A stretch of DNA of 64,000 nt, from the IMG/VR virus record IMGVR_UViG_3300037427_004270; one strand, 5' to 3'. The translations under genes were made by a program, and so were the position numbers. Shown piece by piece: positions 2,560-56,270 of the stretch; the stretch's first letter is position 1, and every line of letters begins with the position of its first letter. The notes beneath the pieces were generated by a model that was not told the DNA's origin, did no database searches, and saw nothing but the letters and a program-made list of their open reading frames with translations. The stretch comes from a virus.

Positions 2560-2569
2560 TATAAATAGT
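2560..2569 (-). promoter_or_regulatory. putative late-promoter motif ACTATTTATA
   Basis: Recurrent intergenic motif on the coding strand ahead of late-type genes. Confidence 0.55.
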
Positions 2570-2616: not shown

Positions 2617-3336
2617 ATGAAGAAAATATTCTTAACGAGCCTGTGTGCACTATTTTTATTATCATCTTGTACAATTTTTAGCACACTCGTTATCAAAAAT
2701 AAGAAAGATTCTTTCGTTCAAGTCCTTTCTATAAAGACGGTAAGCGGTGGAGAGATCGGACTTAGCACTGCTTCCGGAGTAGTTGTTGAAAACCGAGGTA
2801 ACAAGTCCTACATTTTGACTGCTGGTCACTTTTGTCTAGATAAAGACGATATTAATAAAACTATATCGCCTATCGAGGGAGTGGTTATAACTAAATTAAA
2901 CGGAGGGCATGAGAAAGGTCGAGTCTTTGCGATCTCTAGATTGTGGGACATATGCCTGTTAGAATCCCCGAAGCTGGGTCTTGACTCTGTTAAAGTCGCT
3001 GCTCACGATATTGAGGTTGGCGACAACGTAGTAAACATCGCTGCACCTAACGGTTTATTTGGAAAAGATCTTGTAATGTCATATGAAGGACGATATTCCG
3101 GGCATGGCGGGAACGGATATGCTGTGGAGACAGAAGTTGATTTCTATACATTCCCTGTCGCTCCTGGTAGTTCAGGGAGTCCAATATTTAATTTAAAAGG
3201 CGAAATTGTAGGCTTAGTATTCGCCGTAGACGCCAGGTATCACCATATTACCTTGGCAGTAACAAGAGAACAAATAATAATGTTTTTAGAGAGTGTTCTC
3301 GACCTAGACTATATTATAGAAAGACCAAGGAAGTAA
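2617..3336 (+). CDS. trypsin-like (S1) serine protease with lipoprotein-type signal
   Basis: LTAGHFC (His), DICLL (Asp), PGSSGSP (Ser); N-terminal LLSSC lipobox. Confidence 0.88.
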   Translation: MKKIFLTSLCALFLLSSCTIFSTLVIKNKKDSFVQVLSIKTVSGGEIGLSTASGVVVENRGNKSYILTAGHFCLDKDDINKTISPIEGVVITKLNGGHEKGRVFAISRLWDICLLESPKLGLDSVKVAAHDIEVGDNVVNIAAPNGLFGKDLVMSYEGRYSGHGGNGYAVETEVDFYTFPVAPGSSGSPIFNLKGEIVGLVFAVDARYHHITLAVTREQIIMFLESVLDLDYIIERPRK

Positions 3337-4043: not shown

Positions 4044-4226
4044 TTATTCTTCTGAGGCGCAGGCGACAGTAATTTTCTGAGGTTCGAAAACATAGCTTGT
4101 TTCTGTTCCCGAGTCTTTTTCATTGCCAGCGTCTGGAATGCCTGCATCTGGGCTGTCTACAACCAGAGGGTTGCACGATAGGCAAGTCAATGCCAAGAAA
4201 GTAAGGGTACTTGCTCTTTTTTTCAT
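4044..4226 (-). CDS. small lipoprotein
   Basis: MKKR n-region, LALTCLSC lipobox, PDAGIPDAG linker. Confidence 0.6.
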   Translation of the reverse strand: MKKRASTLTFLALTCLSCNPLVVDSPDAGIPDAGNEKDSGTETSYVFEPQKITVACASEE

Positions 4227-5808: not shown

Positions 5809-7212
5809 TTATTCTGAAAAATACTTTATCTTTGGCATGCCAGTATATTTACAAGCTTCCTCCAGGGCAGCTCTTAGCATTTGTTCTCTCTTTTTGGGAT
5901 CTTTCCAGTCCTCTTTCATTGACGGAGATAATGTTCGTAGTGGGTCAACATATGTAAATAATTTACCTCGCTTTACAGCAGGTGCCTTAAATACTGATAT
6001 GCCAGTTTTTCGGTCGTAATGTTCGTAGCTGTGTGCATCTCTTTTTCCGCCACCGCCCATTGTATCCACAATAAACAAAGGAACATTAAAGCCTGCAGTA
6101 GAACCTCGGACTTCTTTCTCTAGGTCAATAGCTGTTTGGACTGTGGTTCTAAGATCTTCCGTTCCTCTAACCAAGTCGTGTACATAAACATAATATGGAT
6201 GCACATTGATGTAACTTAGTTTCTTAATTAAGTCTCCCATGAGTTCTGGAGTGTCGTTTACTCCTGCCTGTAATACCGTTTGGTTGCGAACAGTGATACC
6301 CCTCTCAAATAATAGGTTCATGGCATCCTGAGAAATACCCGTCACTTCGTTTGGGGTATTGAAGTGAGTATGTATAACAACTTCTTTGTGAAGCTTTCTA
6401 CCTCTCTCCACGATTTCAGTTACTGCGTCCGTCCATTCTGTGTCAGTTAAGATCTTCATAGGCTGAATGGCCAGACCCTTAGTGGCAAAGCGGAATCTCC
6501 TGACATGTGGAATATCTAACAATGCATGGCCCAACTCAAGAACTTGGCTTGGCTTTAAACGATACATGTCGCCACCGCTGATGACAATATCTTCTAGCTC
6601 TTTGCGTTCCTTAATATACTGAAACGCCTTGTCCCATCTTTCTTGGTTTGCTTTGAGCTGTACTTTCTCGACGGTATCTGTATCTAAGCCAACAGCATAG
6701 GAGCGAGTACAAAAACGACAATACACTGGGCATGTGTCCAGAGCTAGAAACAGGGCTTTGTCTGGGTATCTGTGAGTAAGGCCGTCAACAGGTGCATCGG
6801 CCTGCTCATGTAGTGAATCCAAAGTTAGGAGAGGGTGGTCTTCTTCTAGTTGAGAGCCCACTGGAAGGAATTGCCTTCGTATAGGGTCTGTGTAGGGGTT
6901 TTCCCAATCAATGAGAGAAAGCAAATAGGGAGATATTCGAACTGCCATAGGTGCAGCACCAAAGCCAGCTTTGACATCTTCAATAAACTCTTCTGATACA
7001 ATATCCTGAACTGCTGCTATGAGCTTCTTTGGTTTTGTGATAGCATTTCTCTCTTGCCACTTATGGCTCAAGAAAGTTTCTTCATCTATCTCTTTCCAAG
7101 CTGGTATTCTCTGCCAGAAGGCATCTCTCCTTAAATTTCTCCACGAAAGACTCTGTTCCGAAACTTTTGGCTTTAAGTGATTTACCTTCTCTTCTACTAT
7201 CTTCAAACTCAT
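5809..7212 (-). CDS. kamA: KamA-family radical-SAM lysine 2,3-aminomutase
   Basis: HRYPDK, CPVYCRFCTR (CxxxCxxC), ISGGD, NQTVLQAGVND, PYYVY, GGGGK PLP-lysine; start at 7212 chosen from GGAGG RBS (7227 is an alternative). Confidence 0.92.
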   Translation of the reverse strand: MSLKIVEEKVNHLKPKVSEQSLSWRNLRRDAFWQRIPAWKEIDEETFLSHKWQERNAITKPKKLIAAVQDIVSEEFIEDVKAGFGAAPMAVRISPYLLSLIDWENPYTDPIRRQFLPVGSQLEEDHPLLTLDSLHEQADAPVDGLTHRYPDKALFLALDTCPVYCRFCTRSYAVGLDTDTVEKVQLKANQERWDKAFQYIKERKELEDIVISGGDMYRLKPSQVLELGHALLDIPHVRRFRFATKGLAIQPMKILTDTEWTDAVTEIVERGRKLHKEVVIHTHFNTPNEVTGISQDAMNLLFERGITVRNQTVLQAGVNDTPELMGDLIKKLSYINVHPYYVYVHDLVRGTEDLRTTVQTAIDLEKEVRGSTAGFNVPLFIVDTMGGGGKRDAHSYEHYDRKTGISVFKAPAVKRGKLFTYVDPLRTLSPSMKEDWKDPKKREQMLRAALEEACKYTGMPKIKYFSE

Positions 7213-7232
7213 AAGGGCCTCCAACATTGCAC

Positions 7233-7308: not shown

Positions 7309-7950
7309 TTAGAAGTTAATTCCCGCCGACAGTGTAACAACGTTTGCGTCGTCACCTTCGGTATTCTGTTGACGGAAGTATTCTGCACGAACACTAACGC
7401 CTGCGCCCACTTCTGTTGACGCTCCGGCAAGGATGCGGTTCTCTGATACACCGTCTTGGTTAACGTGTACTTCATCGCCCACGGATACATCAACGGTTGC
7501 GATCTTTAAGTCCAAAGACTTTGTGAGCATAATTTGCTCACGAACTCGCATTTGTTCTGTGCCAACGGCAGTAACGTCGCCATGCTCATCTAGTTGCAGG
7601 CGCAGTCTGTTGGCTAATGTAATACCGAGTGGTAATGCCACATCGTTATTTACATCTAAAGAAACTCGGTTCTCTGATGTGCCATTAGTATTAGTGTTTC
7701 GGATGCGTAACTGTAAATCCATATTCTCAGTTAAGTCACGAGACACTGCGAACACGGTGTGTTCATAACCAGCGGCCTTCGTAACCATGTCCTCACTAAT
7801 GCTTAGATCATGGCGAACTTGCTCTTCTGCTGAGAGTGTAAAGCCGCCAAGCTTTGCAGATCCAGCGGTAGCTTCCAAACGAAGTTCGTCTGCATAACTA
7901 ACGCTACTTACCAAAAACGCCATAACGGTCGCTAATAGTGCTTTTTTCAT
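7309..7950 (-). CDS. outer-membrane beta-barrel protein (DUF2490-like)
   Basis: Signal peptide MKKALLATVMAFLVSSVSYA, alternating beta-strand pattern, RLRLQL and ENRILAG motifs, C-terminal Phe; AAGGAG RBS. Confidence 0.75.
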   Translation of the reverse strand: MKKALLATVMAFLVSSVSYADELRLEATAGSAKLGGFTLSAEEQVRHDLSISEDMVTKAAGYEHTVFAVSRDLTENMDLQLRIRNTNTNGTSENRVSLDVNNDVALPLGITLANRLRLQLDEHGDVTAVGTEQMRVREQIMLTKSLDLKIATVDVSVGDEVHVNQDGVSENRILAGASTEVGAGVSVRAEYFRQQNTEGDDANVVTLSAGINF

Positions 7951-8005
7951 AGTTTTCTCCTTTTCATTCACCCGCTTAATTGCGGAGTGATGTTAAGTTG
8001 ATATA

Positions 8006-15551: not shown

Positions 15552-15561
15552 TATAAATAGT
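15552..15561 (-). promoter_or_regulatory. putative late-promoter motif ACTATTTATA
   Basis: 3 nt before ATG. Confidence 0.6.
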
Positions 15562-20556: not shown

Positions 20557-20566
20557 TATAAATAGT
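20557..20566 (-). promoter_or_regulatory. putative late-promoter motif ACTATTTATA
   Basis: 2 nt before ATG. Confidence 0.6.
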
Positions 20567-40913: not shown

Positions 40914-42098
40914 CTAAATACCCAGAACCTTCTCATTCCCGCATTTAAAATTTGTATAAGACATAACTCTTTTCGGAGCGATCCAAAGACGCTTGCACAT
41001 ACTTCGGCCTGGAGTCGGGGCTCCAAGGTCTGTAACGACGATATGAGCATCATAATTGTGCTCATTCACATACTTTGTCGGTGCATCAAAACATGTACCT
41101 CCAGTCAATACTCTCTCTCGTTTTACGCTATGTCCCTTCTTTACTCTGACAATCTTATCCTCGTGGACCCTTGTATCGAAAGGTATAAGATCAAAGTCAA
41201 CAATGCTGCTCAGTACACTAATCTCAGAAAAGAATTCGGCCAACATCTTATCGTCAACCGAGCCGGACTGATCTAGGCTCAGGGCTATCTTTGCAACTCT
41301 TCTAACTTTCTTGGCTGGAAAGACGTATGGAAACCTCTTGTTTATTTTTCTAACTGTGCTGTTCTTTTCCATTCTTTGGGAAGTCTTACAGAAATACCTG
41401 AGTACTTTTTGCCAACTAACTCTTGCTCCAACATATTTGTCGATAAGTTTGTTTTTCATCTCCGCTGTAACGGTTCCCCACCTGTTTGTCTTTGAACAGT
41501 CGCTAACTGCTTTCGAGATAGCATCCTCTAGCTTGCTGTTTGCTATCTCAGAGCCTACAGAGGCTTTTGCATCGCCCGGTGTATCACCAGTCGCCGGTGC
41601 CCACTCCTCGTGGCTGTCGAGCTCTGAGACACCATCAACATCCTCGTCGGACATCTGGGAAAGTATGGCCTGATAATACCACTCTGAGGTTTTTCCAGCA
41701 GGCATGTTCTCAAAAGGACCTTTTCCTGGGAAGCATGCAATATCTGGTAGCTCGCCCTCCAGGTGACTGTTGATGGCAAGATCTGCAGCGATGTTCCAAA
41801 CCTTATGGTTTGTTCTCTTTTCTGCAGTGACGTGGTTAAAGATAAGATGATAGAACTCGTGCTTTAGAACGCCCAAGATCTCTCTAGCTGGTAATGAATT
41901 TATAAACTCTTCATTGTAGAGAAGTTGAAAGCGGCTCGTCGATTCGTTGAAGCGAACTCCGCAAGTGGGCACACTGCTGTCACTTATCTTATCTATCTGT
42001 AGAGAAATGTATGAGAAAAACGGCTCGTCCCTCAATAGGGCAGACAAGTGCTTTCTCATATCAAACTTTCTTTTACTCATCTTTCTGGTCCTCGACAA
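40914..42098 (-). CDS. DUF2201-type metallopeptidase/vWA protein
   Basis: LKHEFYHLIFNH (HExxH), WNIAADLAINSHL, LDQSGSV MIDAS, GGTCF, VVTDL. Confidence 0.88.
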   Translation of the reverse strand: MSRTRKMSKRKFDMRKHLSALLRDEPFFSYISLQIDKISDSSVPTCGVRFNESTSRFQLLYNEEFINSLPAREILGVLKHEFYHLIFNHVTAEKRTNHKVWNIAADLAINSHLEGELPDIACFPGKGPFENMPAGKTSEWYYQAILSQMSDEDVDGVSELDSHEEWAPATGDTPGDAKASVGSEIANSKLEDAISKAVSDCSKTNRWGTVTAEMKNKLIDKYVGARVSWQKVLRYFCKTSQRMEKNSTVRKINKRFPYVFPAKKVRRVAKIALSLDQSGSVDDKMLAEFFSEISVLSSIVDFDLIPFDTRVHEDKIVRVKKGHSVKRERVLTGGTCFDAPTKYVNEHNYDAHIVVTDLGAPTPGRSMCKRLWIAPKRVMSYTNFKCGNEKVLGI

Positions 42099-43194
42099 AG
42101 CTCAAAATGTCAACGATATATTCACGAATAACAGTACCATCCGCTGTTTTAGATTTGTGAAATGCCACAATGTTTTTAAGTTCCCCCGAACCGATGATCG
42201 ACCAAAGCTTGGCAGCGGCCTCGGAAGGAACCTTGACAAAGTATTCACACACGTTTGCAAGCACCTCTTCTTCGATCTCTTCAGGGCCGATGAAAAGAGC
42301 TGAATTCTCCTCATCTAATTTCTCGATAAGATCGCAATGCTCTGATAGGGTGAAGTCCTCCACCAAGTCCAGCTTACCATCATAAAACACATCCTCGATA
42401 GAGACTTTTCTTTCGCAGTTTTTCAGATAGTCAGCAAAGGACACAGATGCCTGCATGCCAACAAAAGAGCATGAGATGTTGTAAATGGACTCTAGAACGA
42501 ATTCATCCTTATTGTGCATGTATTGTTGAATGAGCTCACCTACCGTGGTGCTTAGTCGATCCCAAGATCTTCGACTAGGATATACGGTGCCGGGAGAGTG
42601 CTCCTCTGCAAACTCTAAGAACTTTGGCTCTCTGTCCAGGAAGTCAATAATTTCCGAGACAACTTTTCCTTTGGCCCAAGCCTTCCAATCTTCATGCGAA
42701 GGGTCAACATCAAAGACCGACCACCTGTCTAACTCTGCAGGGTCCATCTCTCCCACTTGGTATGAAGAGCTTTCCTGAGCTCCTCCGTTAATGGCTGCGA
42801 AGATGATGGTGTCCGGGTGTAGCGTCCAGCCTGCCAGCTTTCTGCTGTCCGTTAACTCAAAAATACCCTGTCGGACTTCGAGGACCGCACGATCAATTTC
42901 GTCGAAGAAAAGCACAACAGGCTCAGTGCATGCTTGCACTAGCCATGAAAACGGTCTAAACCTTGATGCCTTCTGGCCATTGACATCGTAAGACTCCTGG
43001 CTCGGGATACCAAGTAAGTCACCCTCTGTCATCTGAGAAGCTCGGCGCTCTACAACTGGAAGCTCGACGGTATTCGCGAACTGGTATATAACCTGGCTTT
43101 TTCCAATCCCATGCTTCCCTCTAAGAAGCACAGGCAACCTAGCACTGGTTACTAACGGAAGGCATCTATTCAACGAAGAAAAAGAAATGCTCAT
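42073..43194 (-). CDS. MoxR-like AAA+ ATPase
   Basis: Walker A GKHGIGKS, Walker B LFFDEIDRA, MDPAELDRW, PSRRSW. Confidence 0.9.
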   Translation of the reverse strand: MSISFSSLNRCLPLVTSARLPVLLRGKHGIGKSQVIYQFANTVELPVVERRASQMTEGDLLGIPSQESYDVNGQKASRFRPFSWLVQACTEPVVLFFDEIDRAVLEVRQGIFELTDSRKLAGWTLHPDTIIFAAINGGAQESSSYQVGEMDPAELDRWSVFDVDPSHEDWKAWAKGKVVSEIIDFLDREPKFLEFAEEHSPGTVYPSRRSWDRLSTTVGELIQQYMHNKDEFVLESIYNISCSFVGMQASVSFADYLKNCERKVSIEDVFYDGKLDLVEDFTLSEHCDLIEKLDEENSALFIGPEEIEEEVLANVCEYFVKVPSEAAAKLWSIIGSGELKNIVAFHKSKTADGTVIREYIVDILSFVEDQKDE

Positions 43195-44646: not shown

Positions 44647-46587
44647 CTAGAAGCAGACGTCTTGGAAAATATCCTTTAAAATTTCAGTATATCGAGAGCC
44701 GCTTGGTGGGTGAATATCAATTGTTCTATCCGGATCTCCGTATGCTGCAGCCATCCAGGATGACAAATAATTGATCGCATCAATAAAAAAGATCTCTACT
44801 GCATCGCCCGGCTCGCATCCGGCTATACCACATGGGGAGGCCAGCGCAGATATATCTTGAGGCTGATTTCCCCAAGTTGTTTGTGGCCCCTCATCGCTAA
44901 TGCTGATCACATACGGAAAAGCATCACTTCTCCAAGGAATAGCCAGGGGGTTTACGGGGTCTACGGCTGCAGCAACGACATCAGATGTTCTCTCCCATCC
45001 GCCTCCATGACAACCCAAGCTTGCAATGATGCTGGTAAGTGATGCGGCATCAACCATCCCGGCCTGAGTCATTACGACTGCATTGCCATAGGAATTTGAA
45101 TGATGCTGGCTTGGGTGCATTATTAACCCGAAACGATGGTCTGTTTCTTCAAAGTCAGCAACATATGATGCAATGCCTTCTGCTAGAGCTTCGATGTAGG
45201 GACACATGGAGCCTGAAGTGTCAATGACAAATACCATGTCCACTTTGTCATGTGCATTCAAGTCTTCGTCTATCTCTCCGTCACAGTCATTGTCTATCTG
45301 ATCGCACACCTCTTCTTCTGGCAGTATCTCCCCTACGCAGTTACCCCAAGCACCTACTTCGCAGGTGGTGGTGCCCAGACGACACTGGCCAATGCCATGC
45401 AAGTTTGGATTGTTGCCGCACATGGAAACTATCCCGTCGATGTTGCCGTCACAGTCGTTATCCCAGTTGTCGCAAATCTCCGGCTCGATGCCTTGGTAAA
45501 CACATGTTCCCCAAACTCCAAACTCATCACAGACCTGCATACCAAAGCCACAGTTGAGGAGGTTGCCCTCAGTGTCGTAAATGTCTTCTCTGCACACCTG
45601 TATTTCGTCCTTTATACAAAGGCACCCCTCGTCAATTTCTCCGTCGCAGTCGTTATCAATCTCATCACAAAGCTCTGTTGTGGGTTGTGGGGCGTCACAG
45701 AAAGCCCATCGACCGAGGAGGCACTTTTCCATACCTGGGCCACAAATAGACTCGCATGGTTGAAATAAGTTCTCGTCCGTCGCTCCGTCACAGTCATCGT
45801 CGAGGTTGTTGCACGTTTCATTCATTGGCATGACAGCATCAAAACATTTAAGATCTCCTTCAACACAATATTCCAAGCCATAGGCGCAAATACCGACATC
45901 GCTGAAACCGCATACCCTCTGGTTCAGTGAACTAAGTTCAACAGGGTCGTCGTCAACAATACCGTTACAGTCATTATCAACTCCGTCGCACCTTTCCTGC
46001 TCATCTAACACTTGCCCCTCACAGTTCGTCATTTGCCCGTCAGTGCATCTCATGATGCCAGTGGCACACGGAGTGGTATCGGAGAAGATAACGTCTTCAG
46101 AGCCCGTCCAGCACTCCACAGGGGGTATCTCATCTATCTCACCGTTGCAGTTATCATCATAACCATTGCAAACCTCAGTTCTCATTGGTCTAATGTCTGG
46201 ATTTGTGTCATCGCAGTCTTGTGCATTCAAGCACGACTCTAATGAGTTGAAGCCATCGCCGTCCTTGTCTTCTGACAGGCCATCGTCGATAAGGCCATTG
46301 CAGTCATCGTCCTTTTCGTTACACTCTTCGTCTTGTGGTCCGAGGTATTCTTCGCAAGTAACTGAGTAGTCTCTATTATCGCACACCGTTGTGCCAAAAG
46401 AACACTCGCCCAACTCAGTCAGGCCTTGAAGGTCAATGCCTATCAAGACTTCTCCGTCTGTGCCGGTGGCACAAGGTTCTGGTGGTGGGCAAAAGCGTGT
46501 CAGTTGTTCATCGCACTGTGGGCATGCAGCTAACACCAAAAGCATTATGGCGCTAACCGAAAAAAACCTAGACATTTTTTTTCTCAT
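44647..46587 (-). CDS. lipoprotein with seven Cys/Asp 'putative metal-binding motif' (MopE-related) repeats and C-terminal vWA domain
   Basis: LLVLAAC lipobox; seven E.C(D/N)..D(N/D)(D/N)C(D/N)G..D repeats; FVIDTSGS MIDAS..SISDEG. Confidence 0.88.
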   Translation of the reverse strand: MRKKMSRFFSVSAIMLLVLAACPQCDEQLTRFCPPPEPCATGTDGEVLIGIDLQGLTELGECSFGTTVCDNRDYSVTCEEYLGPQDEECNEKDDDCNGLIDDGLSEDKDGDGFNSLESCLNAQDCDDTNPDIRPMRTEVCNGYDDNCNGEIDEIPPVECWTGSEDVIFSDTTPCATGIMRCTDGQMTNCEGQVLDEQERCDGVDNDCNGIVDDDPVELSSLNQRVCGFSDVGICAYGLEYCVEGDLKCFDAVMPMNETCNNLDDDCDGATDENLFQPCESICGPGMEKCLLGRWAFCDAPQPTTELCDEIDNDCDGEIDEGCLCIKDEIQVCREDIYDTEGNLLNCGFGMQVCDEFGVWGTCVYQGIEPEICDNWDNDCDGNIDGIVSMCGNNPNLHGIGQCRLGTTTCEVGAWGNCVGEILPEEEVCDQIDNDCDGEIDEDLNAHDKVDMVFVIDTSGSMCPYIEALAEGIASYVADFEETDHRFGLIMHPSQHHSNSYGNAVVMTQAGMVDAASLTSIIASLGCHGGGWERTSDVVAAAVDPVNPLAIPWRSDAFPYVISISDEGPQTTWGNQPQDISALASPCGIAGCEPGDAVEIFFIDAINYLSSWMAAAYGDPDRTIDIHPPSGSRYTEILKDIFQDVCF

Positions 46588-46651
46588 AATATAAATATGA
46601 TCAAAAACTATTATAAATCACTTTTCCAAGGCTTACAAGCGGTTTTTTTTG

Positions 46652-46846
46652 CTATTCCTGGCCTAGTTTGTCCAAGATCTCCACTTTAAGTGTGCATTCA
46701 TCCATATCATTTAAGTACCTTACCACAGTTTTGAAAGAAGCTTCAACAAAAATATTACCATCAATATCACAATAGTGACAGCTCAGGCCTCGCTTCCCTC
46801 GACAAGTCATACAGGCACACTTCACATAAAGCTTTTTATCTGCCAA
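46652..46846 (-). CDS. small Cys-rich (zinc-finger-like) protein
   Basis: CACMTC..CHYC. Confidence 0.55.
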   Translation of the reverse strand: MADKKLYVKCACMTCRGKRGLSCHYCDIDGNIFVEASFKTVVRYLNDMDECTLKVEILDKLGQE

Positions 46847-47779: not shown

Positions 47780-47807
47780 TATAACACGAAGTTGAACGGA
47801 ATGTCAA
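47778..47807 (-). promoter_or_regulatory. sigma70-type promoter
   Basis: TTGACA-18 bp-TATAAT. Confidence 0.7.
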
Positions 47808-48271
47808 GCACTCTTGGTGAAAGCATACTTATACAAGCGAGTAAGAAAAACTTCTCGCCCTCCCTCGTTCTTTAGCTGATTTACTTCACACGATGGAACT
47901 GGGGACCGTAGATGCATGGTCCCCTTCATCACTGAGCCTCGACTCTTAACACCAACAGACATGCCGCACGAGGGCGAGTTTGCAATACCAATGAAACCAA
48001 CTGCATCCGGATGCCTGGAGAATATCTCTTCCGACTTTGACATCATAGATGGATAGACATTCTCTCCTCCCATCTTTCCGTGAACCTCGTCGCCAATTTG
48101 CATCAGTCTTATATTCTGGCGAGGGGTACCAAAAAGTTCGTGTTCTGGGCAAACAGGTACAAGTGTTATACCATTCTCTTTCGCCCACTCTTGAACGTCT
48201 GGTCTGTGTTTGTCGGCACCATTCCACCTGACCTTGTTGCCCAGAACACATGAACTTATTAGTACTTTCAT
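47804..48271 (-). CDS. tudS: DUF523 / 2-thiouracil desulfurase family [4Fe-4S] protein
   Basis: ISSCVLGNKVRWNG, PVCPE, GTPRQNIRL, SPSCG. Confidence 0.85.
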   Translation of the reverse strand: MKVLISSCVLGNKVRWNGADKHRPDVQEWAKENGITLVPVCPEHELFGTPRQNIRLMQIGDEVHGKMGGENVYPSMMSKSEEIFSRHPDAVGFIGIANSPSCGMSVGVKSRGSVMKGTMHLRSPVPSCEVNQLKNEGGREVFLTRLYKYAFTKSA

Positions 48272-48287
48272 CGGCTATCCGTTATGC

Positions 48288-48364
48288 TGGCACACTCGGC
48301 AGGACTCGAACCTGCAACCCTCGGCTTAGAAGGCCGATGCTCTATCCAGTTGAGCTACGAGTGC
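48288..48364 (-). tRNA. tRNA-Arg(TCT)
   Basis: Full cloverleaf GCACTCG...anticodon loop CTTCTAA...GGTTCGAGTCC...GTGTG-CCA. Confidence 0.95.
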
Positions 48365-48550: not shown

Positions 48551-48820
48551 TCACGAGTTGCAGTCCTTATACTGAAGCTCCCACTCACAATCCTGTGAAC
48601 CATAAGCACAGTAGTCGTATCTGCAGGTACCTCCGTCAGACTCGTCAAATGTCCAAGAACAACAAACGCCATAAGAATTGGACGTGCACTCGTCGGGAGC
48701 TTCCTCAAAGGGATACTCGTGAGAACACTGAGGTGGTTCTGGGTCTGGTGCTGCGACCCATTCTGGCATTGGCTCCACGCAAGCGATTGCGCCAAATGCT
48801 ATAAGTAAAATACTTTTCAT
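48551..48820 (-). CDS. Cys-rich lipoprotein
   Basis: IAFGAIAC lipobox; six further Cys; AGGA RBS. Confidence 0.7.
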   Translation of the reverse strand: MKSILLIAFGAIACVEPMPEWVAAPDPEPPQCSHEYPFEEAPDECTSNSYGVCCSWTFDESDGGTCRYDYCAYGSQDCEWELQYKDCNS

Positions 48821-48847
48821 ATTTCCTCCGAATAAACTGTTTTTTAT

Positions 48848-48876
48848 ATTATAACGTATCTTAAAAGCTGTGTCAA
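48848..48876 (-). promoter_or_regulatory. sigma70-type promoter
   Basis: TTGACA-17 bp-TATAAT. Confidence 0.8.
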
Positions 48877-48880
48877 TACT

Positions 48881-49339
48881 TTATTTGCTTTTTATTGTGT
48901 AGTATACGTTCATCACTCTCTTGACGTAGGAATATCTCATCTTTTTAAAGCAGATATATCCTGCATTATATGCACATAGGGCTAGTTCTCGATCTCCCTT
49001 TGCGCGATCCAGCCACCAGCGGAGGGCCTTTGTGCCGACCTTGATGTTCGTCTTAGGATCTTTTAACTCTTCACAAGTATAAAGAGAGCCATCCTTCTTT
49101 GGATTCCACTTTGGTATCACCTGCATCAAGCCACAAGCGCCTGCTTCTGACACTGCTTTCGGATACCAACTGCTCTCAACCTGGATGATTGCAGCAACGA
49201 GCTCTGGCTCCAGGTTGCTCTGCTTTGCATGTTCGATAATTGTTGGGGTATATTCTTGTATTTTCTTTTCTGATATTGTAGTGTGCGACACAAGAAACGC
49301 TATAATAGCCGCACTAGACAAATTTGATACTAAACTCAC
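48881..49339 (-). CDS. SLT-family lytic transglycosylase
   Basis: AAIIQVESSW, AGACGLMQV, NIKVG, ALCAYNAG; N-terminal signal anchor. Confidence 0.92.
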   Translation of the reverse strand: MSLVSNLSSAAIIAFLVSHTTISEKKIQEYTPTIIEHAKQSNLEPELVAAIIQVESSWYPKAVSEAGACGLMQVIPKWNPKKDGSLYTCEELKDPKTNIKVGTKALRWWLDRAKGDRELALCAYNAGYICFKKMRYSYVKRVMNVYYTIKSK

Positions 49340-52046: not shown

Positions 52047-52122
<76 letters not shown>

Positions 52123-54065: not shown

Positions 54066-54683
54066 TTACTTCTTGAATAGTTTTGAAAAGTCGAACCCCA
54101 AAGGGTCTGTTTTGTTTGATGAAATATGATAATGCCCAAGCACTCCCTTAAACTTCTGAGGGTCTTTGATTGTGCCCTTCCATGACGGAGTGATGATGGG
54201 AAGGCTGTAGTATCCACACAATGTCTGGACCAACGCCCTCAATGCCTCTTCTTGAATCGGATAAAAACCTAGACGGTCTGGGGCTTGTCTGCGATGTACT
54301 TTGTCTGCTTTCCATATTGGTCTTGGGTTTTCTTTGTTTTGGTATTTTAGGAATACAGGGTTTGCGACTTCAACACCGACACTCTGGGTGTTTACGCCAC
54401 GGGCATGCCAAGCAATATCATTGGCATCCATTAGCTGTATTATTGTGCCGTCCGTATCAATGCAAAAATGCACTGAAAGGCCACGGTTTGTAATTACTCG
54501 GTGGCACATCTCTGAATCTAGGCAGCCATCCCAATGTACAACAACACTTCTAACTCCTCTGTGGGAGTTTCTTTTTTTCATGTTGTCTTCTGGTAGTCCC
54601 CACTCTGGGTTTGTCTTGTAAGTTACGACCTTATCCCACTCTATGGATATTTCTTTGTCGTCAATGATAATAGAAGATTTCAT
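54066..54683 (-). CDS. N-acetylmuramoyl-L-alanine amidase (family 2)
   Basis: VVVHWD, SVHFCIDTDG, AWHARGVN, SVGVE, GHYHI..DP; start 54683 from GGAG RBS (54815 is an alternative). Confidence 0.88.
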   Translation of the reverse strand: MKSSIIIDDKEISIEWDKVVTYKTNPEWGLPEDNMKKRNSHRGVRSVVVHWDGCLDSEMCHRVITNRGLSVHFCIDTDGTIIQLMDANDIAWHARGVNTQSVGVEVANPVFLKYQNKENPRPIWKADKVHRRQAPDRLGFYPIQEEALRALVQTLCGYYSLPIITPSWKGTIKDPQKFKGVLGHYHISSNKTDPLGFDFSKLFKK

Positions 54684-54735
54684 TTCTTGTTCTCCGAGCA
54701 CTTCACTTGGTGTAGTATATAGTGCTTCAGAGCTT

Positions 54736-55083
54736 CTAATCGTTATTTTTGGTCTTTTTCTTGCGGGACTTATAATGCTTAGGAGGGTCCGTAGGAATGT
54801 AAACAATGTTTCCATCTTGCCACCTTATTTCTACTTTATCATCAAGAAACCTGTTGAGGTTCTTGAAGTGTCGGAGAATTTCACTCTCGGACATTTTCTT
54901 TCCTAGTCTGTTAGCGAGACAATGGCGGAGTACTGAATTTATTAGAAATGCTTTCTCGGCATGGTAGACTCCCATCTTAACATAGCAAAACCTTCTGTCT
55001 TCCATGAGCTTGTCAAGGAAGCTTTCTACCAGTTCAGTTTCATAGTTATCAGACTTCATCTCCATCGTGTTCCCTGCTATCAT
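54736..55083 (-). CDS. hypothetical protein
   Basis: 115 aa, AGGAG RBS, ACTATTTAC motif at 55114-55122. Confidence 0.65.
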   Translation of the reverse strand: MIAGNTMEMKSDNYETELVESFLDKLMEDRRFCYVKMGVYHAEKAFLINSVLRHCLANRLGKKMSESEILRHFKNLNRFLDDKVEIRWQDGNIVYIPTDPPKHYKSRKKKTKNND

Positions 55084-56260: not shown

Positions 56261-56270
56261 TATAAATAGT
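56261..56270 (-). promoter_or_regulatory. putative late-promoter motif ACTATTTATA
   Basis: Intergenic, upstream of the acidic protein. Confidence 0.6.

What the first reader, a model, noticed from the sequence alone, without database searches (positions are those of the whole stretch)
44647..46587. Myxobacterial-style Cys-repeat/vWA surface lipoprotein: possible hijack of host social or adhesion machinery
The protein has a lipobox, seven Cys/Asp repeats of the MopE-related putative metal-binding motif (strongly expanded in Myxococcota) and a vWA domain with an intact DxSxS MIDAS. In Myxococcus, the gliding adhesin CglB is a vWA lipoprotein held by OM beta-barrels, and the kin-recognition receptor TraA carries Cys-rich repeats. 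With the phage's own beta-barrel (7309), Cys-rich lipoprotein (48551), PDAG-linker lipoprotein (4044) and lipoprotease (2617), this suggests a phage envelope-remodelling set. Such a set could alter adhesion, motility or cell-cell exchange to spread progeny or exclude rivals. The host assignment and function are inferences.
Basis: partly seen in the sequence, partly recalled or inferred. Interest (0 to 1): 0.72.

Follow-up and report, generated by a model that had tools for sequence, protein, structure and literature searches.

The report
Phage-encoded integrin-like surface lipoprotein
An uncultured marine T4-like phage, probably infecting myxobacteria-like hosts, encodes a lipid-anchored, cysteine-rich stalk topped by an integrin-type binding head; hundreds of related phages carry the same gene and a gliding myxobacterium has a longer counterpart, so it is probably a copied host adhesin of untested function.

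Summary
The ORF at 44647-46587 (-) encodes 646 aa. It has a lipoprotein signal (LAAC, Cys22), seven CxxxD[DN]DC[DN]G (MopE-type) repeats and a C-terminal vWA domain with the MIDAS motif DTSGS. The fold was checked by profile search, AlphaFold2, Foldseek and VIA (Z 17).

It is one member of a large family that the Atlas records as viral. At least 439 IMG/VR stretches match, and nearly all of the best 80 keep the lipobox, 4-9 repeats and DxSxS. The carriers form one uncultured phage lineage of about 190 kb, and the three complete genomes checked each have one copy.

A full-architecture cellular counterpart exists in a Myxococcaceae MAG: a lipoprotein with 14 repeats and a homologous vWA domain (hhalign E 8.6e-42). 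The phage's Lon and KamA-like genes also have only Myxococcota or 'Deltaproteobacteria' among their named best cellular hits. The host guess is therefore supported but not proven.

The function is untested. My best reading (about 0.4) is an exported mimic of a host adhesin that works like M. xanthus CglD/CglB. Superinfection exclusion is the main rival.

First readers of this scan noted the same kind of gene in two other genomes.

The parts
44647..46587 (-). Whole gene: 646-aa lipoprotein with MopE-type repeats and a vWA domain
   Evidence: ORF. It has more than 100 full-length homologues at 36-90% identity. It is syntenic in L001-L005.
46522..46587 (-). Lipoprotein signal peptide, aa 1-22, with lipobox LAAC and lipidated Cys22
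   Evidence: Read directly from the sequence. The N-terminal signal followed by Cys is kept across the family.
46333..46521 (-). Membrane-proximal linker, aa 23-85, with CxxC just after the lipid Cys. It is the most variable part of the protein.
   Evidence: Mean pairwise identity is 30%, against 49% for the repeats and 42% for the vWA domain.
45253..46332 (-). Seven Cys/Asp repeats of about 50-60 aa each (aa 86-445). Each ends in E-x-C-D-x-x-D-N-D-C-D-G-x-I-D-E. They probably form a disulfide-bonded, Ca-binding stalk.
   Evidence: PF11617 scores E 3.8e-26. Motif positions are and the invariant Cys, Asp and Gly columns. The model has pLDDT 85-92 with short beta-hairpins. Calcium binding and the stalk shape are inferences.
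44650..45252 (-). vWA (integrin I-domain-like) head, aa 446-646
   Evidence: Profile against PDB gives E 1.2e-5. Foldseek TM(target) is up to 0.74. VIA gives Z 17.0.
45208..45222 (-). MIDAS motif D456-T-S458-G-S460
   Evidence: These are invariant columns in 66 sequences. DxSxS is present in all 115 full-length homologues.
46610..46638 (-). Sigma-70-like promoter TTGTAA-17-TATAAT, ending about 22 nt before the ATG. There is no Shine-Dalgarno sequence.
   Evidence: Relatives keep a sigma-70-like -35/-10 pair here, often with the -10 box ending 7 nt before the ATG. This is a consensus match only. The number of such sites in the region is not above that in shuffled sequence.
46590..46597 (-). TATTTATA (read on the coding strand) 2 nt before the start codon. 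It is a variant of the strand-biased ACTAYTTA motif.
   Evidence: Its role is unknown.
46652..46846 (-). 64-aa ORF with two CxxC pairs, directly upstream. It is a conserved neighbour.
   Evidence: It lies upstream of the vWA gene in 12 of 73 distinct loci and downstream on the opposite strand in one more. It has no Pfam hit.
2617..3336 (+). Trypsin-like serine protease with its own lipobox. It is a probable functional partner encoded 42 kb away.
   Evidence: Trypsin_2 scores E 2e-17. Its homologue lies directly beside the vWA gene in 9 diverse loci. It is present in 4 of 5 large related records.

Best explanation
The gene encodes a lipoprotein made in the infected cell and exported to its envelope. 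Its build resembles an integrin: an N-terminal lipid anchor, a variable linker, a rigid stalk of seven disulfide-bonded repeats that probably bind calcium, and a distal vWA head.

The head would bind an acidic residue of its ligand through a metal ion held at the MIDAS site (D456, S458, S460, D565).

It is a shortened phage version of a class of myxobacterial surface lipoproteins (lipobox, MopE repeats, vWA).

I infer that host RNA polymerase transcribes it from a sigma-70-like promoter, that it crosses the inner membrane through Sec, and that it is lipidated and sorted to the outer membrane.

There it would act as a mimic or competitor of the host's own vWA adhesins, as CglD and CglB act in Myxococcus. 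This would change what the infected cell sticks to, or whether it keeps moving. It may work together with the phage's lipid-anchored trypsin-like protease.

Shown here: the domain anatomy, the family, the cellular counterpart, and the affinity of two auxiliary genes for Myxococcota. Inferred: export, location, ligand and benefit to the phage.
For: Anatomy.

The lipoprotein signal and about 50 Cys are kept across 115 homologues and nearly all of 80 viral loci. This fits an oxidising, extracytoplasmic location.

The Atlas records the family's clusters as viral. The three complete genomes checked each carry one copy. The gene is kept throughout a lineage whose DnaE is still 64-66% identical where this protein has fallen to 27-31%.

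Cellular counterpart: the 1203-aa protein of L034 has lipobox LLAGC, 14 MopE stretches, DNSGS and ...VTDE. hhalign gives probability 100% and E 8.6e-42 over 523 columns. A 372-aa Myxococcaceae vWA lipoprotein matches with probability 95%.

Host-type genes: Lon is 60-64% identical to its best cellular hits, and all 9 named hits are Myxococcota or Deltaproteobacteria. The KamA-like gene is 68-72% identical to its best named cellular hits, and all 3 are Myxococcota.

The regions flanking the MIDAS site are the best conserved part of the head, so the ligand is probably conserved.

The promoter-like site, the missing Shine-Dalgarno sequence and a position outside the structural module argue for a non-virion, host-transcribed gene.

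Analogues with experimental data: CglB and CglD are surface lipoproteins rich in disulfides, and the MIDAS motif of each matters for its function (PMC9946355; 10.1101/2023.10.19.562135).

Link to the protease.
Against: Nothing here shows export, surface exposure, a ligand or any phenotype.

The host is not identified. The lineage's GC (26-55%) is far below that of most Myxococcota loci (55-75%). The nearest cultured phages by TerL infect Flavobacterium and Microcystis.

The vWA head alone has no close cellular relative. It found nothing in the order of the repeat-rich marine MAG and scored E 0.004 or worse in other Myxococcota MAGs.

Nearly all known functions of phage lipoproteins are superinfection exclusion or lysis, not adhesion.

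The TATTTATA/ACTAYTTA-like motif before the start codon may mean late rather than early expression.

The protease lies next to the gene in only 9 of 73 loci.
Confidence: 0.4

Rival explanations
1. Superinfection exclusion or receptor masking. The lipoprotein sits in the envelope of the infected cell, and its vWA head binds and occupies the phage receptor (an outer-membrane protein, a pilus tip or a polysaccharide-linked protein). The partner lipoprotease may cleave that receptor. Later phages could then not adsorb, and progeny would not be lost on cell debris. T5 Llp does this at FhuA.
For: By my own knowledge, characterised non-lysis phage lipoproteins (T5 Llp, Cor of phi80/N15, Ltp of TP-J34) are exclusion proteins. 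The gene has an early-type sigma-70-like promoter. It diverges fast and changes genome position compared with the replication genes. One 267-kb relative has three ORFs carrying the repeats. A lipid-anchored protease travels with it.
Against: The head is not hypervariable, and the MIDAS surroundings are the best conserved part. Earlier unchecked notes report that the fibre genes of this lineage are highly variable. Exclusion genes are usually small and sporadic. This one is 600-800 aa and is kept lineage-wide in one copy. It has no similarity to known exclusion families: the only PHROG hit has E 0.47, and a PADLOC search was not run.
Confidence: 0.25
2. A periplasmic envelope or lysis role. The lipoprotein is anchored on the inner face of the outer membrane. 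Its fixed-length stalk spans the periplasm, and the head binds peptidoglycan-associated or inner-membrane partners. It would help to tie together or break the envelope at lysis (spanin-like), or help the export of another phage protein.
For: It is a lipoprotein of fairly constant length within the close clade: 584-662 aa with 4-7 motif matches. It lies within a few kb of an SLT transglycosylase, an Amidase_2 and an 89-aa Cys-rich lipoprotein.
Against: It has no C-terminal membrane segment, which a unimolecular spanin needs. The small lipoprotein next to SLT is a better o-spanin candidate. The linkage to SLT is not kept in relatives. The repeat number ranges from 4 to 9 in the wider family. vWA domains with a MIDAS site are typical of extracellular adhesion.
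Confidence: 0.1
3. A virion-associated adhesin. The protein decorates the capsid or fibres and binds surfaces or host cells.
For: Earlier unchecked notes say this phage has many fibre and lectin-like genes. An ACTAYTTA-like motif, also seen before some structural genes, lies upstream.
Against: The Sec/lipoprotein signal is conserved and the roughly 24 disulfides would not form in the cytoplasm. The gene lies among replication, chaperone and small early-type genes, not in the structural block. It matches no PHROG structural family.
Confidence: 0.05
4. A copper or other metal-scavenging protein like MopE of methanotrophs.
For: The Pfam name of the repeat is Cu-binding_MopE. A weak profile hit to MopE chain 2vov (E 0.03) covers only the 43-residue motif.
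Against: The match is limited to the short Asp/Cys motif. As I recall, the copper site of MopE lies in a different part of that protein (His and kynurenine). The protein here has only 1.2% His. The motif occurs by the hundred in giant surface proteins of Myxococcota, where it acts as a structural repeat.
Confidence: 0.03

Closest known systems
CglD of Myxococcus xanthus, a beta-integrin-like gliding-motility surface lipoprotein (bioRxiv 10.1101/2023.10.19.562135)
   Same: Both have an N-terminal lipobox, Asp-rich Ca-binding repeats, a Cys-rich disulfide-bonded stalk and a vWA domain with a DxSxS MIDAS motif. Both are from a Myxococcota context.
   Different: CglD is cellular and 1130 aa long. 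It has COMP/TSP3-type DxDxDG repeats and EGF-like modules rather than PF11617 repeats, and it works with the Glt gliding machine. The phage protein is 646 aa, encoded by a virus, and has no known partner. Sequence homology to CglD was not tested because no reference sequence was at hand.
[quoted passage not shown]
   Same: Both are lipoproteins with a vWA domain and a MIDAS motif shown (for CglB) to matter for function. Both are Cys-rich with disulfides. In CglB the MIDAS motif lies about 35 residues after the lipid Cys. The same holds for the 372-aa Myxococcaceae lipoprotein that matches the phage head.
   Different: CglB is 416 aa. It has a beta-jellyroll domain and no repeat stalk, and it is held by the GltA/B/H/K platform. 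I did not establish whether the matched MAG protein is CglB.
Uncharacterised myxobacterial lipoproteins with MopE repeats and a vWA domain (example: L034 7557-11168, Myxococcaceae MAG)
   Same: The order of parts is the same (lipobox, PF11617 repeats, vWA) and the vWA domain is homologous. hhalign gives probability 100% and E 8.6e-42 over 523 columns at 30% identity.
   Different: The cellular protein is about twice as long. It has 14 repeats and 107 Cys, an extra C-terminal beta-rich tail, and GC about 73%. Its function is unknown.
Phage lipoproteins that block receptors (T5 Llp, Cor)
   Same: They are phage-encoded, lipid-anchored in the envelope of the infected cell, and bind a host surface component.
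   Different: They are about 60-80 aa with no vWA domain and no repeats. There is no sequence similarity.

Membership tests
vWA / integrin I-domain superfamily | Rossmann-like alpha/beta fold of about 200 aa | tested here: met
   In the AF2 model the C-terminal blocks are mostly above pLDDT 90. Foldseek TM(target) is 0.66-0.74 to integrin, CMG2 and LapA vWA domains. VIA gives Z 17.0, rmsd 2.7, 172-176 aligned residues.
vWA / integrin I-domain superfamily | MIDAS site: DxSxS, plus a later Thr and a later Asp | tested here: met
   D456, S458 and S460 are invariant. D565 of ...SDE aligns with the integrin ...TDG Asp. The residue standing in for the Thr was not assigned; E532 is an invariant candidate.
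vWA / integrin I-domain superfamily | Pfam gathering score for a vWA model | tested here: not met
   The single sequence scores 13-15 bits against cut-offs of 23.8-27. The family profile reaches E 1.2e-5 against integrin I-domains. Some homologues carry precomputed PF00092 or PF13519 hits.
PF11617 MopE-type putative metal-binding repeat | Pfam gathering score and a repeated C-x3-D-N-D-C-D-G motif | tested here: met
   91.4 bits against a cut-off of 27, with 6 stretches. Seven motifs were found by pattern.
Bacterial lipoproteins (Lgt/Lsp substrates) | Signal peptide ending in the lipobox [LVI][ASTVI][GAS]C | tested here: met
   LAAC with Cys22, conserved across the family. Lipidation itself cannot be tested with these tools.
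Myxobacterial lipoproteins with MopE repeats and a vWA domain (L034 type) | Same domain order and a homologous vWA domain | tested here: met
   hhalign gives probability 100% and E 8.6e-42 for query aa 64-620. L034 has lipobox LLAGC and 14 PF11617 stretches.
CglB/CglD gliding adhesins | Orthology to CglB or CglD and association with the Glt outer-membrane platform | not tested
   No reference sequences were available by id. I made no search for glt genes in the phage. Only the architectural likeness is documented.
TraA kin-recognition receptor | Variable (PA14-like) domain, TraA-type Cys-rich repeats and the MYXO-CTERM sorting tag | tested here: not met
   Pfam shows only PF11617 and weak vWA hits, and NCBIfam shows nothing. 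The C-terminus ends ...QDVCF with no hydrophobic tag. The TraA layout is taken from PMC13184517.
Spanins (o-spanin or unimolecular spanin) | Small outer-membrane lipoprotein paired with an i-spanin, or a lipoprotein with a C-terminal transmembrane segment | tested here: not met
   The protein is 646 aa with no C-terminal hydrophobic segment, and it has no PHROG lysis hit.
MoxR-type AAA+ ATPase with vWA partner | A cytoplasmic vWA protein encoded next to an AAA_5/MoxR ATPase | tested here: not met
   The nearby AAA_5 ATPase (42073-43194) already has its own DUF2201 vWA-like/metallopeptidase partner (40914-42098). The target carries an export signal.

The most novel reading that the evidence does not exclude
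A whole lineage of uncultured phages of about 190 kb that infect marine Myxococcota-like bacteria carries a miniature integrin copied from the host. The protein plugs into, or competes with, the host's focal-adhesion and surface-adhesin machinery, together with a lipid-anchored protease. It thereby stops or redirects the movement and sticking of infected cells in a swarm or on a particle. Because myxobacteria exchange outer-membrane lipoproteins with kin, it might even reach uninfected neighbours ahead of the virus.
Probability: 0.12. Interest if true: 0.85.

Novelty: new variant of a known kind. Interest (0 to 1): 0.56.

Why it matters
vWA/MIDAS lipoprotein adhesins are central to gliding in myxobacteria, and lipoproteins are a known tool of phages for changing the host surface. 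I found no description of an integrin-like vWA lipoprotein encoded by phages. The held paper library gave none and 50,697 GenBank phage records gave no match.

In this lineage the gene is a conserved, usually single-copy gene of a large uncultured aquatic phage group. It may therefore mark a common and unstudied step of infection in a host group for which very few phages are known.

The gene also helps with host assignment. Together with Lon and the KamA-like gene, it points these phages towards Myxococcota.

The work gives a defined target for testing whether viruses of social, motile bacteria manipulate adhesion or movement.

Tried and rejected
- GenBank phages gave no match to the protein.
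- The nearest cultured phages by TerL are Flavobacterium phage immuto (47%) and Microcystis phage Mel-JY01 (45%). Both are too distant to assign a host. About half of the genes have a Shine-Dalgarno sequence, which argues against a Bacteroidota host.
It is not a census.
- The repeat-rich marine 'Deltaproteobacteria' MAG NP119 (425 repeat matches, GC about 51%) looked like a host candidate. Its order has no match to the vWA head, and its Lon is only 52% identical, below the 64% of the best hits.
- The best weak vWA hits in Bradymonadia and Nannocystaceae MAGs proved to be Ig-repeat proteins, not CglD-like ones.
- The 'provirus' flag on a related 188-kb record gave no host flank. The sampled regions have uniform GC of about 39% and carry phage-like genes.
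- The genes around the cellular counterpart were uninformative.
- A MoxR-vWA pairing was rejected.
- A copper-binding MopE-like function was rejected (see the rival explanations).
- The VIA wide search only re-found the vWA head, so the fold of the repeats was not tested on its own.
- No dN/dS analysis was attempted, because synonymous sites are saturated at these distances.
Full report
**1. The observation**

The minus-strand ORF 44647-46587 encodes 646 aa. It begins with a basic n-region, a hydrophobic core and LAAC, which makes Cys22 the lipobox Cys. It has 50 Cys (7.7%) and 12% Asp. Seven C-x3-D-[DN]-D-C-[DN]-G motifs start at aa 89, 140, 200, 259, 307, 372 and 428, and the sequence DTSGS lies at aa 456-460.

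Pfam gives PF11617 (Cu-binding_MopE) at E 3.8e-26 with six stretches. The vWA models stay below threshold for the single sequence (E 0.04-0.09). NCBIfam and PHROGs give nothing useful.

I checked the vWA domain in four further ways:
- A 66-sequence family alignment (A1), used as a profile, hits integrin alphaX and alphaL I-domains at E 1e-5 to 1e-4. In that alignment ...SDE of the phage protein lies on the integrin ...TDG.
- AlphaFold2 on A1 gives mean pLDDT 85.8. The C-terminal 200 residues form an alternating beta/alpha domain with blocks mostly above 90.
- Foldseek places that domain on integrin I-domains, CMG2/ANTXR2 and the LapA adhesin vWA domain, with TM(target) 0.66-0.74.
- VIA gives Z 17.0, rmsd 2.7 A over 172-176 residues, for aa 443-646.

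**2. The genome**

The window is part of a 158-kb IMG/VR virus record that is 87% complete, with GC 42%. Almost all genes lie on one strand. The window holds a DnaE-type polymerase, GroEL, PhoH, an AAA_5 ATPase with a DUF2201 partner, an SLT lysozyme, an Amidase_2, a KamA-like radical-SAM enzyme, a DUF2490-like beta-barrel and two tRNAs.

Earlier agents of this scan called it an uncultured marine T4-like phage. Its TerL is 47% identical to Flavobacterium phage immuto and 45% to Microcystis phage Mel-JY01, so it has no close cultured relative. One close relative has direct terminal repeats at 191,133 bp, which fixes the genome size at about 190 kb.

**3. The family**

The large protein collection holds more than 100 full-length homologues of 584-662 aa at 36-90% identity. 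They come from Tara, JGI and ENA metagenomes, on contigs of up to 190-305 kb. Nearly all have a hydrophobic N-terminus followed by Cys. All have DxSxS and 44-53 Cys. The ESM Atlas records its nearest clusters as viral (97-100% of members with a record).

Nearly all of the best 80 encode a lipobox, 4-9 repeats and a DxSxS motif in proteins of about 540-815 aa; four lack a detected MIDAS motif and several are cut by contig ends. Their contigs have GC from 26 to 55%.

The flanks of even the most distant copies carry homologues of this phage's replication genes. DnaE is 64-66% identical where the vWA protein is only 27-31%. The gene therefore belongs to one broad phage lineage, evolves faster than the replication core, and has moved within the genome. 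It lies beside GroEL in the close clade, and beside DnaE or other genes elsewhere.

The three complete genomes checked have one copy each, and a 267-kb relative has three ORFs carrying the repeats.

In the close clade this protein (65-78% identical) is better conserved than GroEL (57%) or the AAA ATPase (51%).

Within A1 the membrane-proximal linker is the most variable part (30% mean identity). The repeats (49%) and the head (42%) are similar to each other, and the MIDAS flanks are among the best conserved segments. There is no hypervariable tip.

**4. Cellular relatives and host**

It returned 80 loci at 27-43% identity, mostly covering only the repeat region. Most are Myxococcota or 'Deltaproteobacteria' MAGs with GC 55-75%.

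The giant proteins that lead the exhaustive HMMER search have 10-30 repeat stretches at 42-49% identity. Where they are named, they are 'MopE-related protein', a 'transporter' or 'MYXO-CTERM domain-containing protein' of Deltaproteobacteria or Myxococcales MAGs. One marine MAG of 10.8 Mb has 425 matches.

One cellular protein matches over the whole architecture. In a Myxococcaceae MAG (L034) a 1203-aa protein starts with lipobox LLAGC, has 14 PF11617 stretches and 107 Cys, and ends in a vWA domain with DNSGS and ...VTDE. hhalign of A1 against it gives probability 100% and E 8.6e-42 over 523 columns, spanning query aa 64-620.

A 372-aa Myxococcaceae lipoprotein with a vWA domain just after its lipid Cys matches the phage head with probability 95%.

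Searched alone, the head finds nothing closer. It has no hit in the order of the repeat-rich MAG and scores E 0.004 or worse elsewhere.

Two unrelated auxiliary genes point the same way:
Its best cellular hits are 60-64% identical, and all nine that carry an organism name are Myxococcota, Myxococcales, Myxococcaceae or Deltaproteobacteria. Lon of single MAGs named Saprospiraceae, Kiloniellales, Nitrospirota and Terriglobia reached 47-51%.
- The KamA-like gene has named cellular best hits at 68-72%, and all three are Myxococcota.

Other observations bear on the host:
- The phage uses Shine-Dalgarno sequences at about half of its genes.
- It encodes an outer-membrane beta-barrel, so the host has two membranes.
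- The gene's GC (48.6%, GC3 48.7%) lies within the range of other phage genes. It is not a recent import from a high-GC genome.

I put the odds of a Myxococcota, or closely related, host at about two in three. The low GC of the lineage and the absence of any direct link keep this open.

**5. Neighbours and partners**

No neighbour is universal. A 64-aa ORF with two CxxC pairs lies directly upstream in 12 of 73 distinct loci, including this one, and on the other side in one more.

A homologue of the phage's lipobox-bearing trypsin-like protease (window 2617-3336; Trypsin_2 E 2e-17; His, Asp and Ser motifs visible in the translation) lies directly beside the vWA gene in nine loci. These loci differ in GC (35-50%) and protein length (621-740 aa), and the protease is upstream in two loci and downstream in seven. 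The protease is present in four of five large related records, including distant ones. This is moderate evidence for a functional link.

The DUF2490-like beta-barrel is confined to close relatives. The 89-aa Cys-rich lipoprotein lies beside the SLT lysozyme and could be an o-spanin. The neighbouring AAA_5 ATPase has its own DUF2201 vWA-like partner, so it does not explain the target.

**6. Expression signals**

A sigma-70-like promoter (TTGTAA-17-TATAAT) lies just upstream, and there is no Shine-Dalgarno sequence. Several relatives keep a sigma-70-like promoter whose -10 box ends 7 nt before the ATG, which suggests a leaderless mRNA.

In addition, TATTTATA lies 2 nt before the start codon. It resembles ACTAYTTA, which occurs 18 times on the coding strand and once on the other strand, mostly just upstream of ORFs, some of them structural genes. 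The timing of expression is therefore unsettled.

**7. Mechanism**

A conserved Sec/lipoprotein signal and about 24 potential disulfides place the mature protein outside the cytoplasm. The domain order puts the vWA head at the far end of a stalk rooted in a membrane by lipid. A complete, invariant MIDAS site implies metal-dependent binding of an acidic ligand residue, as in integrin I-domains.

The closest characterised proteins are M. xanthus CglD and CglB. Both are surface lipoproteins rich in disulfides, and the MIDAS motif of each matters for gliding adhesion (PMC9946355; 10.1101/2023.10.19.562135). CglD also has Ca-binding repeats and a Cys-rich stalk.

Because a myxobacterial protein with the same architecture exists, I read the phage gene as a shortened copy of a host adhesin. 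It would act on the infected cell's surface as a mimic or competitor, possibly with the lipoprotease (confidence about 0.4).

The main rival is superinfection exclusion or receptor masking (0.25). What is known of phage lipoproteins favours it. The conserved head, the large size and the lineage-wide retention count against it. A periplasmic or lysis role (0.1), a virion adhesin (0.05) and copper binding (0.03) are less likely.

**8. Novelty**

All the parts are known kinds. The combination, as a conserved gene family of a large uncultured phage lineage, is not described in the papers I could search and is absent from GenBank phages. First readers of this scan noted the same kind of gene in two other genomes. 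I rate it a new variant of a known kind, of moderate to good interest. The anatomy and evolutionary setting are solid, and the biology is untested.

Noticed in passing
window 2560-2567, 15552-15559, 20557-20564, 46590-46597 and 56261-56268; whole genome G000: ACTAYTTA occurs 18 times on the coding strand and once on the other strand, mostly 3-56 nt before ORF starts. In five window genes (PhoH, two small ORFs, a 233-aa ORF and the vWA gene) its TATTTATA core ends 1-10 nt before the start codon and there is no Shine-Dalgarno sequence. It may be a phage-specific promoter that gives leaderless or near-leaderless mRNAs.
   Followed up: partly
L090, L092, L097, L101 and L102, upstream of the vWA gene: In several related phages a sigma-70-like -10 box ends exactly 7 nt before the ATG of the vWA gene (for example TTGTAA-17-TATAAT-7-ATG). 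This suggests leaderless transcripts made by host RNA polymerase.
   Followed up: partly
window 40914-43194 (-): An AAA_5 (MoxR-like) ATPase is followed by a DUF2201_N putative metallopeptidase with a DUF2201 vWA-like domain. This is a second, cytoplasmic vWA-type system in the same phage. The ATPase is 44-52% and its partner 41-43% identical in the more distant relatives, where these were found.
   Followed up: partly
window 48551-49339 (-): An SLT transglycosylase with a hydrophobic N-terminus is followed directly by an 89-aa Pro- and Cys-rich lipoprotein. These may be an endolysin and an o-spanin. An Amidase_2 lies at 54066-54815.
   Followed up: no
G000:C1:150604-152940 (outside the window) and window 5809-7227: A full-length Lon protease and a KamA-like radical-SAM enzyme are 60-64% and 68-72% identical to their best cellular hits. 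Every named hit is from Myxococcota or 'Deltaproteobacteria' MAGs. These genes are useful host markers for the lineage.
   Followed up: yes
window 46652-46846 (-): A 64-aa ORF with CxxCxGxxG and CxxCxxxG motifs (DnaJ-like zinc-finger style) is conserved next to the vWA gene in 13 loci, directly upstream in 12 of them. It has no Pfam hit.
   Followed up: partly
window 4044-4226 (-) and 7309-7971 (-): A 60-aa lipoprotein has a DSPDAGIPDAG linker after its lipid Cys. A 220-aa outer-membrane beta-barrel is DUF2490-like (E 1.5e-10). The barrel is kept only in close relatives (63-67% identity).
   Followed up: partly
L034 7557-11168 (+), Myxococcaceae MAG: A cellular 1203-aa lipoprotein has 14 MopE repeats, 107 Cys and a vWA domain homologous to the phage head. 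Its function is unknown and its neighbours are uninformative (a PPC/EGF-like giant protein and a DUF1588/DUF1552 pair).
   Followed up: partly
G001 (MAG 'Deltaproteobacteria bacterium NP119', 10.8 Mb): The query matches 425 places in one marine genome of about 51% GC. This is an extreme expansion of MopE-repeat surface proteins.
   Followed up: no
G022 (IMG/VR record of 267 kb): A larger relative carries three ORFs with the repeats (821, 716 and 564 aa). Two of them also match the start of the vWA region.
   Followed up: no
window 47804-48271 (-), 48288-48364 (-) and 52048-52122 (-): A 2-thiouracil desulfurase-like (DUF523) gene lies next to tRNA-Arg(TCT), and tRNA-Gly(GCC) lies after GroEL.
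   Followed up: no
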